A program made the translations under genes and the position numbers. A stretch of DNA of 64,000 nucleotides from a virus, in the IMG/VR virus record IMGVR_UViG_3300047546_001659, positions 32,001-96,000 of that record. One strand, written 5' to 3'. This document shows, one piece after another, positions 1-14,503 of this stretch. The notes below the pieces were generated by a model. That model did not search any database. It was given only the letters and a program-made list of their open reading frames with translations, and was not told the origin of the DNA. Within the stretch, counting starts at the first letter, position 1. Every line of letters begins with the position of its first letter.

Positions 1-340
1 TATTAAACCAAAGATATCCTTGAGCTGCTGCACCCGGTACAGTATCAGAAACCGTAACTGAAGCACCTCCTCCACCACCAGTTCCACCAACACCCGCTGA
101 TCCTGTATAACCCCTTAAACCCTGATCACCTTGCGAACCAGTATAACCAGGAGTAGTGCTGACTGGGCCTATTTCTCCCTGTGAGCCAGTATAACCCAAA
201 TCACCCTTTGATCCGGAGTAACCAATAGTTGTAGATGAAGCACGCCAATATCCGCCGCCAGAACTAGACCAAATCCAAGTTCTGTCTCCTACTGAATACG
301 ATTGCCCTTCAACAGGACTATTAGGAAAATTTATAGCCAT
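1..340 (-). CDS. Collagen-like fibre protein (3' part runs off the window; absent from ORF track)
   Basis: Manual translation from ATG at 340: [55 protein letters not shown]...SVTVSDTVPGAAAQGYLWFN. Same N-terminal module and GYTGS repeats as its neighbours. Confidence 0.85.
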   Translation of the reverse strand, partial: MAINFPNSPVEGQSYSVGDRTWIWSSSGGGYWRASSTTIGYSGSKGDLGYTGSQGEIGPVSTTPGYTGSQGDQGLRGYTGSAGVGGTGGGGGASVTVSDTVPGAAAQGYLWFN

Positions 341-367
341 TAATTATTTCTCTTTATACGTATTTAT

Positions 368-13100: not shown

Positions 13101-14503
13101 ATTGTTTGTAAGAATGAGTATGTTGAATCATAGAATATATCATTCTCATTAATAAACATCTTTGTAACAGATGTATAGGTATTACTATCAAACTTATAAT
13201 GACCTGCACCCGGATCTGTATTTGATGTATTTGCACTAAATTTATAATTAAATGATGCACCACCAAAGTTACCTGTTGTACCTTGTGGACCTTGAACACC
13301 TCTAGAACCCGCGTAACCTATAATACCTTGTGAACCTACAAAACCTGAAGAGCCAGTATAACCTTGCGATCCACCATAACCAGTTGCACCACGTGAACCT
13401 TGATAACCTTCAGATCCTCTATAACCAGTTTCACCTTGGGTAGTACCAAAATATCTTACTTCAATCTCAGCACCATTTTGAGGTGCATATGCCAGTGTTA
13501 GTTCTGTTCCAGCTACTGTATAATCAACAGTAGGTGTTTCTAAAATACCATTAACAAAAACAAAGATATGATTAGGATCAGAGGTAGAATCTGATAAAGT
13601 AAATTGTGTATTGCTTCCGTTAGCAATATAACGAGATGATTTATATGGTCGACCTGCGCCTTCAGAACCAGTATAACCAATACCTATAGATCCTGTATAA
13701 CCTATAGAACCGGTATAGCCGTCTTGACCACCTGAAGGTCCTTGTGGTCCAACTGCACCCACTGAACCCTGATAACCTGTAAGACCTAACGAACCCTGAT
13801 ATCCAACTGAACCGGTATAACCTACAGAACCTTCTGATCCTTGATAACCTGGTGATCCTATTGTAATATCAAAATATCTTACCTCAATCTCAGCATTAAG
13901 AGGAGGTGCGTTATTAAAAGTAATTGTTGTTCCTGATACTGAATAATCAACATCAGGACTTTCAAGAATACCGTTTGTAAATACTAAAATATGGTTAGCA
14001 TTGGCAGTATTTTCAGCTAAAGTAAATACAGTATTGCTGCCATTTCCTGTATATCTAGATGAACTAGAAGGTTTACCTACGAGGCCTGCAGAACCTGTAT
14101 ATCCAGCACCTCTTGAACCTGTGAAACCTAAGGAACCAGCATAACCTTGTGCGCCACCTGGATCACCTGCAGGTCCTTTATCACCAACTGATCCTGAATA
14201 ACCTATAGAACCTGAATAACCAGTACTGCCTTGAGATCCTGAATAGCCAACATTACCTGCCGAACCGGTATAACCAACACCATCGTTTTCAATATATCTT
14301 ATTTCAATATCAGTAGAATTAAATGGGGTTGACGCTAAATTTATTGTGTTACTATTGACAATAACATAGTCAACATCTGGAATTTGTACAAGACCGTTGA
14401 CAATAACAAGGATGCTATTGGCTGAGTTTACTGTCTGTAAAAGTGGGTAGGAATTAGCCGTTCCGTTGGCAGATATTTGTTGACTATTAAAAACCAGAGA
14501 CAT
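10130..14503 (-). CDS. Large collagen-like virion fibre (1457 aa): three Ig-like N-terminal repeats, long G-X-Y tracts, C-terminal C1q/TNF-like head
   Basis: Three copies of NGxNxxFxL...ILVFxNGILExPxVDY...APxxxAEIEVRY; several hundred residues of G-[YF]-[TVS]-G-S-x; C-terminal WTKVTFNT...FTPQQTGYYHL...DYFELFVYQ...FTG. Confidence 0.8.
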   Translation of the reverse strand: MSLVFNSQQISANGTANSYPLLQTVNSANSILVIVNGLVQIPDVDYVIVNSNTINLASTPFNSTDIEIRYIENDGVGYTGSAGNVGYSGSQGSTGYSGSIGYSGSVGDKGPAGDPGGAQGYAGSLGFTGSRGAGYTGSAGLVGKPSSSSRYTGNGSNTVFTLAENTANANHILVFTNGILESPDVDYSVSGTTITFNNAPPLNAEIEVRYFDITIGSPGYQGSEGSVGYTGSVGYQGSLGLTGYQGSVGAVGPQGPSGGQDGYTGSIGYTGSIGIGYTGSEGAGRPYKSSRYIANGSNTQFTLSDSTSDPNHIFVFVNGILETPTVDYTVAGTELTLAYAPQNGAEIEVRYFGTTQGETGYRGSEGYQGSRGATGYGGSQGYTGSSGFVGSQGIIGYAGSRGVQGPQGTTGNFGGASFNYKFSANTSNTDPGAGHYKFDSNTYTSVTKMFINENDIFYDSTYSFLQTIDDSTSAIKGQFSINSLDEVGKSSIFNIIGEHQFISNYFIVPVSFVSGNSDYTNESNVVLTFARTGDIGDTGYTGSAGYLGSTGFTGSKGDQGITGYAGSLGYTGSFGYTGSLGYTGSTGYVGSLGFTGSQGDQGVRGYTGSIGYTGSIGYTGSKGDIGYTGSYGDLGYTGSIGYTGSIGYTGSFGYTGSKGDIGYTGSYGDLGYTGSFGYTGSIGYTGSEGFTGSKGDQGIQGNIGPLGYSGSLGYSGSLGYTGSQGIQGVLGYTGSQGTGFTGSEGYVGSQGDLGYTGSQGAGYVGSQGDQGFTGSQGDTGPAGPQGDIGFTGSVGDLGYTGSTGAGYVGSEGYVGSQGDLGYTGSIGYTGSQGDRGFTGSQGIEGQPGQFAGYNYLFYFSANTEAADPGTGTLRFSNTTFNNANTLYINKNALDLTYIFNSLLVIGASTSGIKGHFKITSSTNTNNYALFAIINSPIDNSTYSTVPISFLSGDSSIPDATISVLTLARIGDRGDAGYVGSVGSQGGYGYTGSIGYTGSIGYTGSVGYAGSQGEIGYSGSLGYSGSQGDLGYTGSQGDLGYTGSTGAGYVGSQGDVGYAGSQGDQGFTGSTGAGYDGSQGYVGSRGDLGYTGSIGYTGSRGDTGFVGSQGDKGFTGSRGIGFTGSLGYTGSQGEVGYVGSEGIANVIVSDTTPAIQWDGLLWLDSNTGILSIYYEPEQVWLGITAGGPPGEMGFTGSAGPAGGYTGSAGTNGYTGSQGSIGLTGPQGPAGSLGYTGSTGAGFTGSTGFTGSTGSAGFTGSIGSGYVGSQGDIGYSGSLGFTGSVGDAGYVGSEGYVGSVGYVGSQGAIGYTGSQAVVTGSNFGLRKTTQQSIANNNWTKVTFNTTDYDLNAEVASSSFTPQQTGYYHLEGHVSFSGLTNSNTGTVSIAIYKNGSALRNGMKIPAYGTSVAVTISEIVYASASDYFELFVYQNAAAGSQLTDNTPTASQPRFTGRFIRN

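What the first reader, a model, noticed from the sequence alone, without database searches (positions are those of the whole stretch)
1..14503. Gene-order-matched plug-and-socket grammar suggests a daisy-chained, branched fibre system
Seen: two pairs of short modules recur, and each time the gene carrying one half is followed in the operon by a fibre gene that begins with the other half. Pair A: an internal S/T-x-x-P-x-x-P-x-x-G-D-x-W-x-x-S-x-x-G...Y...W motif occurs in 10130-14503 (about 10963-11072), 2872-7836 (about 3565-3680), 1210-2868 (about 1568-1680) and 1-340 (about 1-62). The next fibre gene starts with MA(I/L)xFPxxP...TWxW...W in 9672-10085, 1210-2868 and 1-340. Pair B: C-terminal LDGG(D/S)F in 9672-10085 and 8089-9672 is followed by fibre genes starting (L/I)QIKR(S/T)...L..GELA in 8089-9672 and 2872-7836. 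In addition, the C-terminal adaptor domain of 1210-2868 is followed by the Gly-rich adhesin. Inference: these are two orthogonal docking pairs that link trimers in gene order (1457 aa -> 137 -> 527 -> 1654 -> 552 -> next). Socket A sits upstream of each protein's own terminal head, so every junction would be a branch displaying a different head (C1q-like, LamG, polyglycine). I do not know of a description of this connector code.
Basis: partly seen in the sequence, partly recalled or inferred. Interest (0 to 1): 0.85.

Follow-up and report, generated by a model that had tools for sequence, protein, structure and literature searches.

The report
Plug-and-socket joints chaining phage tail fibres
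A marine T4-like phage encodes its collagen-like tail fibres as a row of separate proteins whose ends carry two matching pairs of small connector modules, which most likely click the pieces together in gene order; one pair is the known T4 long-tail-fibre joint and the other appears to be undescribed in print.

Summary
The contig holds exactly four N-terminal "plug A" and four internal "socket A" modules. It also holds three IKR..GE starts and two ..LDGGxF ends.

In 137 viral loci, socket-gene then plug-gene occurs 56 times against 21.3 ± 3.9 in gene-order shuffles. The reverse order occurs 8 times. xGxF-end then IKR-start occurs 28 times against 6.2, and the reverse once.

Pair B is not new. 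IKR..GE is the N-terminus of T4-type gp37 (Mtd_N/HylP cap), and gp36 of those phages ends ..DFGTF/..DYGTY. This is the known gp36-gp37 joint.

Pair A matched no solved structure or Pfam family and I found no paper on it. One 3+3 complex prediction placed the plug on the socket (0.64 against a best control of 0.00).

The rule also fails after the 190-aa gene, and the "C1q-like" head has no Pfam or PDB sequence support.

Binding itself is inferred, not shown. This scan has noted the same grammar before on other DNA (e1-6030073, e1-5530632, e1-5744033). Verdict: a new variant of a known kind, namely branched or chained receptor-binding complexes.

The parts
10130..14503 (-). P0001, 1457 aa. First fibre gene: repeated T7-tail-fibre-N-like domains, long Gly-X-Y tracts, socket A, more Gly-X-Y, and a C-terminal head of no known family.
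   Evidence: Pfam Collagen E 1.5e-91 and Phage_T7_tail PF03906 E 7.5e-13 in 2 stretches. The head has no Pfam or PDB sequence hit.
10946..11077 (-). Socket A of P0001 (residues 1143-1186).
   Evidence: HMM E 7.8e-14. Predicted interface with the P0002 plug.
9672..10085 (-). P0002, 137-aa adaptor: plug A, 19 Gly-X-Y triplets, then a C-terminal module ending LDGGDF.
   Evidence: Orthologues in L002, L003, L004 and L032 always follow a P0001-like gene and precede a P0003-like gene.
9981..10085 (-). Plug A of P0002 (residues 1-35).
   Evidence: HMM E 9.9e-17. AF2 monomer shows three strands, pLDDT 81-90.
9675..9692 (-). C-terminal LDGGDF tail of P0002 (joint B, donor end).
   Evidence: gp36 of W115 and Ac42 end ..IDFGTF and ..LDYGTY.
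8089..9672 (-). P0003, 527-aa fibre segment with a gp37-type start and a gp36-type end. No Pfam or PHROG family.
9514..9672 (-). IKR..GELA N-terminal cap of P0003 (joint B, acceptor).
   Evidence: HMM E 1.4e-16. Profile A3 hits HylP N-termini in the PDB, E 6e-6.
8092..8109 (-). C-terminal LDGGSF tail of P0003.
7867..8070 (-). Possible fibre chaperone or connector.
   Evidence: 7 of 7 such genes directly precede a long IKR-start gene.
2872..7836 (-). P0004, 1654-aa fibre: IKR cap, Gly-X-Y tracts, internal Laminin_G_3, socket A, and a 224-aa head of no known family.
7672..7836 (-). IKR..GELA cap of P0004.
   Evidence: HMM E 8e-23. tblastn to the starts of annotated gp37 genes in 320 phage records.
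3547..3684 (-). Socket A of P0004 (residues 1385-1430).
   Evidence: HMM E 5.2e-19. tblastn finds it in 92 cultured or marine phage records.
1210..2868 (-). P0005, 552 aa: plug A, LamG, Gly-X-Y, socket A, and a 112-aa C-terminal domain.
2755..2868 (-). Plug A of P0005.
   Evidence: HMM E 2.3e-13.
1549..1686 (-). Socket A of P0005.
   Evidence: HMM E 6.9e-20. AF2 shows four strands, pLDDT 78-89.
368..1210 (-). P0006, 280-aa Gly-rich protein. Likely a distal head mounted on P0005-type fibres.
   Evidence: phrog_4474 E 1e-44. The same domain is fused inside plug-start fibres in L024 (1116 aa) and L019 (572 aa). The adjacency recurs in L104 and L006.
1..340 (-). P0007, 190 aa in full (contig 31768-32340): plug A (224-340), Gly-X-Y, socket A (1-64, cut by the window edge), Gly-X-Y, and a ..SIAMNIIFGG end.

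Best explanation
The operon encodes one composite fibre system of a T4-like marine myovirus. It is built from separately encoded trimeric segments joined by two non-cross-reacting kinds of joint.

Joint B is end to end. The C-terminal tail ..(L/I)DGGx(F/Y)-COOH of one segment (P0002, P0003) is taken up by the Mtd_N/HylP-type N-terminal cap (xIQIKRx..GELA) of the next (P0003, P0004). This is the same arrangement as gp36 with gp37 in the T4 distal half-fibre.

Joint A links a 35-residue N-terminal three-stranded beta module (MA-x-x-FP-x-x-P..TW-W..W; P0002, P0005, P0007 and a 64-aa protein) to a 45-residue four-stranded module (..P..P..GD-W..G..Y-YY..W) in the preceding fibre. In the model the plug adds itself strand against strand to the socket. 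Where the socket is followed by a head domain, the joint is a branch point. Where the socket is C-terminal, as in some relatives, the joint is linear.

The proposed wiring for this contig is: P0001 (anchor) -A- P0002 -B- P0003 -B- P0004 -A- P0005 -A- P0007 -A- 64-aa adaptor -B- 182-aa Mtd_N tip protein, which is followed by its tail-fibre assembly chaperone.

Shown: the modules, their strict positions, their order-specific adjacency across phages, and the homology of pair B to the T4 joint.

Inferred: physical binding at joint A, the exact wiring, and branching.
For: 1. Position. Plug A is N-terminal in 77 of 79 HMM hits in set 1. In set 2, 94 of 101 hits are N-terminal, and all 7 'internal' ones start at an in-frame Met, i.e. 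start-codon miscalls. Socket A is N-terminal in 0 of 99 hits.

2. Order. Among 1429 non-redundant same-strand adjacent gene pairs, 53 of 147 socket genes are followed by a plug gene (odds ratio 7.6, p 2e-20), against 8 of 116 in the reverse order (OR 0.7). 16 of 29 D[GFY]Gx[FY]-ended genes are followed by an IKR-start gene (OR 33). 40 of 66 genes preceding an IKR-start gene end in F or Y, against 133 of 1363 others (OR 14).

3. Gene-order shuffles within 137 loci. Socket then plug was observed 56 times against 21.3 ± 3.9, with 0 of 1000 shuffles reaching it. The reverse was 8 against 21.1. xGxF-end then IKR was 28 against 6.2 (0 of 1000), and the reverse was 1. The cross pairs were 4 against 8.2 and 1 against 4.2.

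4. Replication. The result holds in a set of loci fetched by the socket alone: 29 of 88, OR 5.6. The 53 positive pairs fall into 35 clusters of upstream proteins.

5. Terminal sockets. In L003, L032 and L062 the upstream protein ends exactly at the socket and the next gene starts with the plug.

6. Pair B homology. The P0004 cap matches the starts of annotated gp37 / long-tail-fibre distal-subunit genes in 320 phage records. gp36 of W115 and Ac42 end ..VIDFGTF* and ..VLDYGTY* directly before gp37. PMC3004832 (passages read) states that trimeric gp36 binds the N-terminal region of gp37. Profile A3 hits the HylP N-termini 6x3m, 2yvv, 2c3f, 2dp5 and 3eka at E 6e-6 to 3e-5. The 182-aa protein hits Mtd_N PF18454 at E 1.2e-14.

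7. Complex prediction. The job was 3 copies of P0001(1122-1205) with 3 copies of P0002(1-60). The verdict was 'supports binding; does not show it': score 0.64, best of 3 controls 0.00. That mark was reached by 58 of 80 solved complexes and 2 of 110 mismatched pairs. The runs agree in at least 90% of contacts and the partner pLDDT is at least 61. My own alignments were used, and the job is unlike the calibration. The interface is made of the motif residues: socket D28-T30, D42-I47, Y52 and V57-G64 of the construct, against plug residues 1-5, 18-22 and 27-32.

8. Bookkeeping in this contig: 4 sockets, 4 plugs and 3 IKR starts. The first gene carries T7-tail-fibre-N-like anchor domains. The last IKR gene is followed by a Phage_tail_APC chaperone.

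9. Sockets are not tied to collagen. In the cultured cyanophage MA01, sockets stand in tandem in proteins with no Gly-X-Y run (0 of 8 proteins checked). Three of them lie in a 1942-aa protein between baseplate wedge genes. They sit beside 11-12 plug-start genes.
Against: - Adjacency is a tendency. 94 of 147 socket genes are not directly followed by a plug gene, and 89 of 142 plug genes are not directly preceded by a socket gene.
- In this contig P0006 and the 67-aa gene interrupt the chain. P0007's socket is followed by a plug-less 118-aa gene. The 64-aa plug gene follows a socket-less LamG protein.
- The 67-aa gene that directly precedes P0004 ends ..NESLDN, with no terminal F or Y.
- The sockets of P0004, P0005 and P0007 are alike, and so are the plugs of P0005, P0007 and the 64-aa protein. 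The modules alone therefore cannot dictate gene order. P0005 and P0007 carry both halves and could polymerise on themselves.
- In P0001 the socket has Gly-X-Y on both sides, so a three-way junction is needed there.
- The loci are related by descent, so the p-values overstate independence.
- Only one complex job was possible. No non-cognate pair was tested, and close cousins of true partners are known to pass.
- Both modules fold on their own in AF2 monomers. The socket model weakly resembles the collagen XV/XVIII trimerisation domain: 3n3f_B Z 3.9, rmsd 3.9 A over 47 residues; 9bnb_A Z 4.0, rmsd 3.5 A over 49 residues. That is below the noise level the tool names.
Confidence: 0.6

Rival explanations
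1. The modules act only in cis. Socket A is a trimerisation or registration knot at the end of a Gly-X-Y helix (a neck before the head). Plug A is a generic N-terminal anchor that seats each fibre independently on the baseplate. The gene order merely reflects inherited synteny of fibre clusters.
For: In the window every socket directly follows a Gly-X-Y tract and every plug directly precedes one. Both modules fold alone with good confidence. The socket model gives weak matches to the collagen XV/XVIII trimerisation domains: Z 3.9, rmsd 3.9 A over 47 residues, and Z 4.0, rmsd 3.5 A over 49 residues. 89 of 142 plug genes have no socket gene directly upstream.
Against: It does not explain the direction: 56 forward against 8 reverse, with 21 expected each way. 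It does not explain the 35 different upstream protein clusters, the sockets that form the extreme C-terminus before a plug gene, or the sockets in tandem in proteins with no Gly-X-Y run in MA01. The complex prediction also passed. The Z values are below the tool's stated noise level.
Confidence: 0.17
2. Plugs do dock on sockets, but promiscuously. Any plug can take any socket, including tandem sockets on baseplate proteins, which would give a plug-board or bottle-brush of interchangeable tips rather than one chain wired in gene order. Adjacency exists only because co-adapted partners are inherited together.
For: Sockets and plugs within the contig are near-identical. In MA01, about 15 sockets (several in threes) sit beside 11-12 plug genes, and 3 of the sockets are in a protein between baseplate wedge genes. 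A socket gene lies somewhere upstream in the locus for 49 of 57 plug genes in set 1 and 74 of 81 in set 2, but in the gene directly upstream for only 21 and 29.
Against: The socket of P0001 and the plug of P0002 form a distinct subtype that is kept together in 5 loci while the head after the socket changes. Immediate adjacency is 2.6-fold above shuffled order.
Confidence: 0.18
3. The conserved modules are recombination linkers. They would be stretches kept similar so that fibre cassettes can be swapped between phages, with no role in protein-protein contact.
For: The fibres are mosaic. The P0001 orthologue in L002 carries a P0005-like C-terminal part. RBPseg (PMC12143355, passages) suggests that mobile domains may aid lateral transfer.
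Against: No DNA-level repeat family covers plugs or sockets in window 1-14600. Only the Gly-X-Y tracts, the GQVLTSNG motif and a bead-domain motif repeat. Conservation is at the protein level, at 25-70% identity. This reading would not predict that the plug is always N-terminal.
Confidence: 0.05

Closest known systems
T4 long tail fibre, gp36-gp37 joint (distal half-fibre; genes 34-35-36-37 in assembly order)
   Same: The downstream protein starts with the same xIQFKRx..GELA cap. The upstream protein ends D-(F/Y/G)-G-x-(F/Y)-stop. The genes are adjacent and in physical order. Trimeric gp36 binds the N-terminal region of gp37 (PMC3004832 passages).
   Different: The bodies of P0002 and P0003 have no detectable gp36 or gp37 homology; P0003 has 0 Pfam and 0 PHROG families. 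No gp35 kneecap was seen. P0003 carries both ends, so the joint is used twice in series. The shafts are collagen-like.
Mtd_N / HylP N-terminal cap (Pfam PF18454; PDB 2C3F, 2DP5, 2YVV, 6X3M; Bordetella phage BPP-1 Bbp9 followed by Mtd)
   Same: The 182-aa protein just beyond the window hits PF18454 at E 1.2e-14. Profile A3, which includes P0003 and P0004, hits the HylP N-termini. In BPP-1, Bbp9 ends ..ADLGGIA* directly before Mtd, which starts MSTAVQFRGGT...
   Different: P0003 and P0004 themselves give no Pfam Mtd_N hit at E 0.1. HylP and Mtd are single-gene fibres or tips. A partner tail motif is, to my knowledge, not described for them (recalled). The term Bbp9 occurs in none of the 8 papers listed.
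Anchor / branching-domain / conserved-peptide RBP complexes (Klebsiella KP32, KP34, Menlow; SP6, K1-5, G7C; CBA120)
   Same: A docking module in the first RBP and a short conserved N-terminal peptide in the RBP encoded next, giving branched multi-headed complexes (PMC6872550 passages; PMC13352976 abstract only).
   Different: The docking site there is a T4 gp10-like domain and the peptides are 7-11 residues or group-specific. Here the socket is a 45-residue beta module with no Pfam family and no gp10 match seen. The plug is a folded 35-residue module. The shafts are collagen-like, and the hosts are marine picocyanobacteria or similar.
Branched LtfA/LtfB lateral fibres of T5-like phage DT57C
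   Same: The second fibre protein is attached through the first rather than to the tail (PMC10713586 passages).
   Different: No sequence relation was tested. The attachment site in DT57C is not resolved in the passages I read.

Membership tests
T4-type gp36/gp37 long-tail-fibre joint | The downstream protein begins with the gp37-type N-terminal domain. | tested here: met
   tblastn of P0004 residues 1-65 hits 320 phage records. The matches lie under the starts of genes annotated gp37 or long tail fiber distal subunit (Ac42 gene 37, W115, phiP4-3, fHyAci03).
T4-type gp36/gp37 long-tail-fibre joint | The upstream adjacent protein ends with the gp36-type C-terminal D-x-G-x-(F/Y). | tested here: met
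   P0002 ends ..LDGGDF* and P0003 ends ..LDGGSF*. gp36 ends ..IDFGTF* in W115 and ..LDYGTY* in Ac42.
T4-type gp36/gp37 long-tail-fibre joint | Full-length homology of the bodies to gp36 and gp37. | tested here: not met
   P0003 has 0 Pfam and 0 PHROG families. P0002 hits only collagen-type fibre PHROGs. It therefore works like the joint but is not a gp36 or gp37 orthologue.
T4-type gp36/gp37 long-tail-fibre joint | Physical binding of the two trimers. | not testable with these tools
Mtd_N (PF18454) / HylP N-terminal cap | Pfam hit above the gathering score. | tested here: inconclusive
   Met for the 182-aa protein (54.4 bits against 26.3). Not reported for P0003 or P0004 at E 0.1. A joint profile of 29 caps hits the HylP N-termini at E 6e-6.
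Branching-domain / conserved-peptide RBP systems | T4 gp10-like docking domain in the first RBP. | tested here: inconclusive
   No gp10-type Pfam family in any of the 7 proteins. The socket model has no match above Z 5.2 among 48,161 PDB chains, and none of the listed rows is gp10. A weak or missing match does not exclude it.
Branching-domain / conserved-peptide RBP systems | Conserved N-terminal docking peptide in the RBP encoded downstream. | tested here: met
   Plug A is N-terminal in 77 of 79 hits in set 1 and in effectively all hits in set 2. It lies downstream of socket genes 56 times against 21.3 expected.
Collagen triple-helix repeat proteins (PF01391) | Gly-X-Y repeats above Pfam's cut-off. 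| tested here: met
   P0001 300.6 bits, P0004 170.9, P0005 44.7 and P0002 40.3, against a cut-off of 27.2. P0007 scores 26.6, just below.
Multiplexin-type collagen trimerisation domain | Fold match to the collagen XV/XVIII trimerisation domain. | tested here: inconclusive
   Socket model: 3n3f_B Z 3.9, rmsd 3.9 A over 47 residues; 9bnb_A Z 4.0, rmsd 3.5 A over 49 residues. Plug model: Z 2.2-2.3. All are below the tool's noise level.

The most novel reading that the evidence does not exclude
Marine T4-like phages (Kyanoviridae and relatives) would use a small alphabet of orthogonal connector pairs. These are plug A/socket A, the DGGxF tail with the Mtd_N cap, the ..SIAMxIVFGG tail with a 120-aa tip protein, and a C-terminal adaptor domain with a Gly-rich head. 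In this reading the connectors work as a genetic wiring diagram.

In this contig they specify one continuous eight-protein fibre, running from anchor to tip in gene order, with a different lectin-like head displayed at each socket. In cyanophages such as MA01, tandem sockets on baseplate and scaffold proteins form a plug-board that mounts a dozen interchangeable tips.

If so, reading the connectors would let the whole host-recognition apparatus of uncultured ocean phages be predicted from sequence.
Probability: 0.3. Interest if true: 0.8.

Novelty: new variant of a known kind. Interest (0 to 1): 0.6.

Why it matters
T4-like cyanophages and pelagiphages are among the most abundant viruses in the sea. 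Their 'host recognition cluster' is large, hypervariable and mostly unannotated (PMC7029224 passages).

If the connector modules really say which fibre segment sits on which, the architecture of these multi-gene, multi-headed fibres could be read from metagenomic sequence. That includes which head is distal and which proteins are anchors, adaptors or tips.

It would also add a second docking pair, unrelated in sequence, to the gp10-like/peptide systems already used for modular RBP swapping in laboratory phages. Finally, it ties the T4 gp36-gp37 joint, the HylP/Mtd N-terminal cap and a terminal ..GGxF-COOH tail into one widespread joint.

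Tried and rejected
1. My first idea was that plug A and socket A are the same domain used in two positions. 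hhalign of 47 plugs against 66 sockets gave probability 1.5% over 8 columns, the shared PxxPxxG only, and the HMMs do not cross-hit significantly. I dropped it as a claim. Both AF2 models do weakly match the same 34-residue piece of PhiKZ gp184, 8y6v_I: Z 3.3, rmsd 1.5 A over 33 residues, and Z 3.4, rmsd 2.9 A over 34 residues. A shared small fold therefore remains possible.

2. No solved structure was found by sequence for socket A (best E 0.11) or plug A (best E 0.67). VIA-align over 48,161 chains gave nothing above Z 3.3 for the plug, and Z 3.4-4.0 for the socket part.

3. The 'C1q-like' head has no hit. Neither phmmer against the PDB nor Pfam gave anything meaningful for P0001 residues 1310-1457 or for the P0004 head. 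The AF2 model of the P0005 C-terminal domain was of low confidence (pLDDT below 50), so its beta-helix-like matches at Z 4-5 mean nothing.

4. megablast of the window against 50,697 phage records found no match. tblastn with the 41-aa plug also found no match at E 0.01; the query is short.

5. The recombination-linker idea fails on DNA evidence. No DNA repeat family covers the modules.

6. Literature searches turned up no paper describing plug A/socket A or a DGGxF/Mtd_N tail-cap motif pair. This is an absence in the held library only.

7. A count balance of plugs against sockets is exact in this contig (4:4) but not in the 40-kb MA01 stretch (about 15 sockets against 11-12 plugs). I do not use it as a general rule.

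8. I considered mirror-tree or covariation tests of cognate pairs but did not run them: the independent pairs are too few and they share ancestry.

Full report
**Context**

The window is bases 32001-96000 of a 118,011-bp IMG/VR virus contig, estimated 69% complete. It has no close DNA relative among 50,697 deposited phage genomes.

The genes just upstream of the finding on the minus strand (17863-34596) are T4-type baseplate genes. Wedge-subunit PHROGs 219, 438 and 17744 score E 1e-79 to 7e-150, and there is a hub/lysozyme-like protein. Notes by earlier readers list T4 core genes elsewhere in the contig. So this is a T4-like myovirus.

The fibre operon starts at 14503 on the minus strand, divergent from a 928-aa multi-domain glycosyltransferase. 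It runs past the window start for about 10 kb more.

**Observation**

HMMs seeded from the window's own copies place socket A at these positions:
- P0001 residues 1143-1186 (window 10946-11077)
- P0004 residues 1385-1430 (3547-3684)
- P0005 residues 395-440 (1549-1686)
- P0007 residues 93-139 (window 1-64, cut by the edge)

The same call places plug A at the N-termini of P0002, P0005, P0007 and one more gene outside the window.

P0002 and P0003 end ..LDGGDF* and ..LDGGSF*. P0003 and P0004 start with ..(L/I)QIKR(S/T)..GELA.

In the six-frame translation of the whole contig, these motifs occur only at those places. The HMMs find exactly 4 sockets, 4 plugs and 3 IKR-type starts, with no weaker hit up to E 5.

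- A 67-aa gene lies at 7867-8070 between P0003 and P0004. It is conserved in the same place in L002, L003, L004, L032, L085 and L104; 7 of 7 such genes precede a long IKR-start gene.
- The full 190-aa P0007 is followed by a 118-aa gene with no plug.
- After two 700-aa proteins, each with three Laminin_G_3 domains, comes a 64-aa gene. It starts MAINFPDSP and ends ..DYGSLT*.
- That gene directly precedes a 182-aa protein with an Mtd_N domain (PF18454, E 1.2e-14). A Phage_tail_APC assembly chaperone follows it.

The 'C1q-like' label for the P0001 head found no support. Laminin_G_3 is present in P0005 and inside P0004.

**Are the module pairs linked across phages?**

I fetched two sets of IMG/VR loci. 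Set 1 used P0003 and P0002 as queries and gave L002-L082. Set 2 used only the P0004 socket as query and gave L085-L162.

I called ORFs, kept a non-overlapping same-strand gene set, and scored modules with HMMs. These were trained on the window copies plus first-round hits.

*Position.* Plug A is N-terminal in 77 of 79 hits in set 1. The 7 'internal' hits of set 2 all begin at an in-frame Met, i.e. start-codon miscalls. Socket A is N-terminal in 0 of 99 hits.

*Adjacency in set 1* (679 non-redundant adjacent pairs):

| Upstream then downstream | Count | Odds ratio |
|---|---|---|
| Socket then plug | 24 of 59 socket genes | 11 |
| Plug then socket (reverse) | 0 of 46 | |
| DGGxF-end then IKR-start | 8 of 16 | 32 |
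| IKR-start then DGGxF-end (reverse) | 0 of 34 | |
| Socket then IKR-start (cross) | 1 of 59 | |
| DGGxF-end then plug (cross) | 0 of 16 | |

*Adjacency in set 2* (750 pairs):

| Upstream then downstream | Count | Odds ratio |
|---|---|---|
| Socket then plug | 29 of 88 | 5.6 |
| Reverse | 8 of 70 | 0.95 |
| DGGxF-end then IKR-start | 8 of 13 | 38 |
| Reverse | 0 of 35 | |
| Socket then IKR-start (cross) | 3 of 88 | |
| DGGxF-end then plug (cross) | 0 of 13 | |

*Shuffled gene order.* Shuffling within each of 137 de-duplicated loci keeps composition and tests order alone:

| Upstream then downstream | Observed | Shuffled | Shuffles reaching observed |
|---|---|---|---|
| Socket then plug | 56 | 21.3 ± 3.9 | 0 of 1000 |
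| Plug then socket | 8 | 21.1 | |
| xGxF-end then IKR-start | 28 | 6.2 | 0 of 1000 |
| IKR-start then xGxF-end | 1 | 6.1 | |

*Diversity of positives.* The 53 positive socket-plug pairs have 35 different upstream protein clusters at 40% identity outside the Gly-X-Y tracts. By eye there are about 11 arrangement types in set 1.

*Caveats.* The loci are not phylogenetically independent, so the p-values are upper bounds on significance. The rule is also a tendency. 94 of 147 socket genes are not directly followed by a plug gene. A socket gene does lie somewhere upstream in the locus for 49 of 57 plug genes in set 1 and 74 of 81 in set 2.

**Pair B is the T4 joint**

tblastn with the first 65 residues of P0004 hits 320 phage records. 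The matches lie under the starts of genes annotated gp37 or long-tail-fibre distal subunit.

In Escherichia phage W115 and Acinetobacter phage Ac42 the gene just upstream, gp36, ends ..VIDFGTF* and ..VLDYGTY*. gp37 then starts ..IQFKRT..GELAINL and ..[13 protein letters not shown].

Leiman et al. 2010 (PMC3004832, passages read) state that trimeric gp36 binds the N-terminal region of gp37. [quoted passage not shown] A 2026 preprint (10.64898/2026.03.06.709160, passages read) likewise describes the distal rod as (gp36)3-(gp37)3.

A profile of 29 caps hits the N-termini of streptococcal phage hyaluronidases in the PDB at E 6e-6 to 3e-5.

The tail motif generalises. 40 of 66 genes that precede an IKR-start gene end in F or Y, against 133 of 1363 other genes. 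28 of the 66 end [GAQFY]Gx[FY], against 23 of 1363. Plug-start genes show no such bias, at OR 1.0.

In Bordetella phage BPP-1, Bbp9 ends ..ADLGGIA* directly before Mtd.

So P0002 behaves as a gp36-like adaptor. P0003 is a segment with a gp37-type start and a gp36-type end. P0004 is a gp37-type acceptor. This works like the T4 joint, but the bodies are not gp36 or gp37 homologues.

**Pair A**

Neither module has a Pfam family or a solved relative by sequence. The two are not detectably homologous to each other beyond PxxPxxG.

AF2 monomers give the plug as a three-stranded sheet (pLDDT 81-90) and the socket as four strands (pLDDT 78-89). Fold searches gave only weak matches, at Z 4.0 or below for these parts.

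The socket occurs in 92 deposited phage records: 83 Synechococcus, 4 Prochlorococcus, 4 marine single-cell viruses and 1 uncultured. It is usually inside 'tail fiber-like' proteins.

Three observations favour an inter-protein role over a purely cis one.

1. In L003, L032 and L062 the upstream protein ends exactly at the socket and the next gene starts with the plug. In the orthologous proteins of this contig, L004 and L002, the socket is followed by 271, 248 or 113 further residues. The socket and the following P0002-like gene are kept while the head is optional.

2. In cultured Synechococcus phage MA01, sockets stand in tandem threes in proteins with no Gly-X-Y run at all (0 of 8 proteins checked). 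One is a 1942-aa protein between baseplate wedge genes. They sit beside 11-12 plug-start genes.

3. The one complex job was 3 copies of P0001(1122-1205) with 3 copies of P0002(1-60), using my alignments A4 and A5. It returned 'supports binding; does not show it'.
   - The score was 0.64, and the best of 3 controls was 0.00.
   - That mark was reached by 58 of 80 solved complexes and 2 of 110 mismatched pairs.
   - The runs agree in at least 90% of contacts and the partner pLDDT is at least 61.
   - The tool notes that my own alignments were used and that the job is unlike its calibration.
   - The confident contacts are the motif residues themselves.
   - The plug's last strand (S27-V32) lies against the socket's last strand (V57-G64), and the plug's first five residues against Y52-V57.

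**Wiring proposed for this contig (inferred)**

- P0001 is the anchor. It carries repeated T7-tail-fibre-N-like domains (PF03906, E 7.5e-13).
- P0001 takes P0002 at its socket.
- P0002 passes to P0003 and P0003 to P0004 by joint B.
- P0004 takes P0005 at its socket, and P0005 takes P0007.
- P0007 would take the 64-aa adaptor, which passes to the 182-aa Mtd_N tip protein. That protein's chaperone gene follows it.

Every plug then has a socket and every cap has a tail (4:4 and 3:3). The third tail (..DYGSLT) is degenerate.

**Weak points**

- Two genes interrupt the row, and the P0007-to-64-aa link skips three genes.
- P0005 and P0007 carry both halves, and their modules are alike. Specificity, or avoidance of self-polymerisation, is therefore unexplained.
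- P0001 needs a three-way junction.

**Two further order-linked pairs turned up**

- Genes ending ..SIAMxI(V/I)FGG* are followed by a 109-123-aa gene starting MA-x-PNI in 9 of 14 cases (OR 230). This includes P0007 and the 118-aa gene.
- The P0005-type C-terminal domain is followed by a Gly-rich gene in this contig, L104 and L006. The Gly-rich domain is fused into plug-start fibres in L024 and L019.

**Comparison with what is known**

Chaining fibre proteins in gene order is the T4 paradigm. Branching through a docking domain plus a conserved N-terminal peptide in the next RBP is described for Klebsiella, SP6, K1-5 and G7C phages. This is in Latka et al. 2019, PMC6872550 (passages), and was tested experimentally according to the abstract of PMC13352976. 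DT57C LtfB is attached through LtfA (PMC10713586 passages).

What I did not find in print is the plug A/socket A pair, or the tail-cap motif pair as such (searches). Supplements could not be read.

This scan has itself flagged the same or like grammar in other genomes (e1-6030073, e1-5530632, e1-5493825, e1-5744033, e1-5632203). Those are unchecked AI notes and do not count as independent evidence.

**Verdict**

This is a new variant of a known kind. My confidence that these modules are inter-protein joints chaining the fibre roughly in gene order is 0.6. It is higher for pair B (about 0.75) and lower for pair A (about 0.55). It is lower still for the exact eight-protein wiring.

Noticed in passing
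window 7867-8070 (-): A conserved 67-aa predicted coiled-coil gene (MGPELYNIYVEKL..) always sits directly upstream of the long IKR-start fibre gene (7 of 7). In 4 of the 7 copies it ends in acidic residues plus F (..TDF*..SQF*), which is like other partners of the IKR cap. The window copy ends ..SLDN. It could be a chaperone, or a second ligand of the cap.
   Followed up: partly
contig 31404-31760 and 31768-32340 (just before window start); L004, L009, L012, L045, L085, L134, L155, L162: A third order-linked pair. Fibre genes ending ..SIAMxI(V/I)FGG* are followed by a 109-123-aa gene starting MA-x-PNIVN.. in 9 of 14 cases, OR 230. The small protein has no Pfam family.
   Followed up: partly
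window 368-1210 (-); L024:17198-20546, L019:379-2097: The Gly-rich P0006 domain occurs fused to the C-terminal part of plug-start fibre proteins in other phages (E 2.6e-23 and 2e-15). This is a Rosetta-stone hint that P0006 is a head mounted on P0005.
   Followed up: partly
window 10130-14503 (-), N-terminal 360 residues: The T7 tail-fibre N-terminal domain (PF03906) appears repeated: Pfam reports 2 stretches, and by eye there are three similar ~70-residue units separated by Gly-X-Y tracts. That is unusual for an anchor domain.
   Followed up: no
window 14567-17353 (+): A 928-aa protein with a glycosyltransferase part (phrog_2170) and a phrog_1574 part is transcribed divergently from the first collagen-like fibre gene. 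Earlier notes of the scan read this as a fibre glycosylation system.
   Followed up: no
contig 21233-25903 (-), about 6-11 kb before window start: A 1556-aa protein made of RCC1-like repeats (PF25390 E 1.6e-180, PF00415 in 14 stretches) closes the fibre operon after the tail-fibre chaperone gene.
   Followed up: no
window 3879-3946, 4197-4264, 5409-5476, 7569-7636: Four DNA-level copies (60-76% identity to the reference copy) encode the motif G-x-x-G-Q-(V/I)-L-x-x-x-G-x-x-x-Y-W inside P0004. The C-terminal modules of P0002 and P0003 look like the same motif extended by LDGGxF.
   Followed up: partly
L163 (Synechococcus phage MA01, PP110484) 16554-22382: A 1942-aa 'structural protein' between baseplate wedge genes carries three socket A modules (E 1.6e-15, 1.1e-06 and 4e-11) and no Gly-X-Y run. 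These are possible docking sites for plug-start fibres on the baseplate itself.
   Followed up: partly
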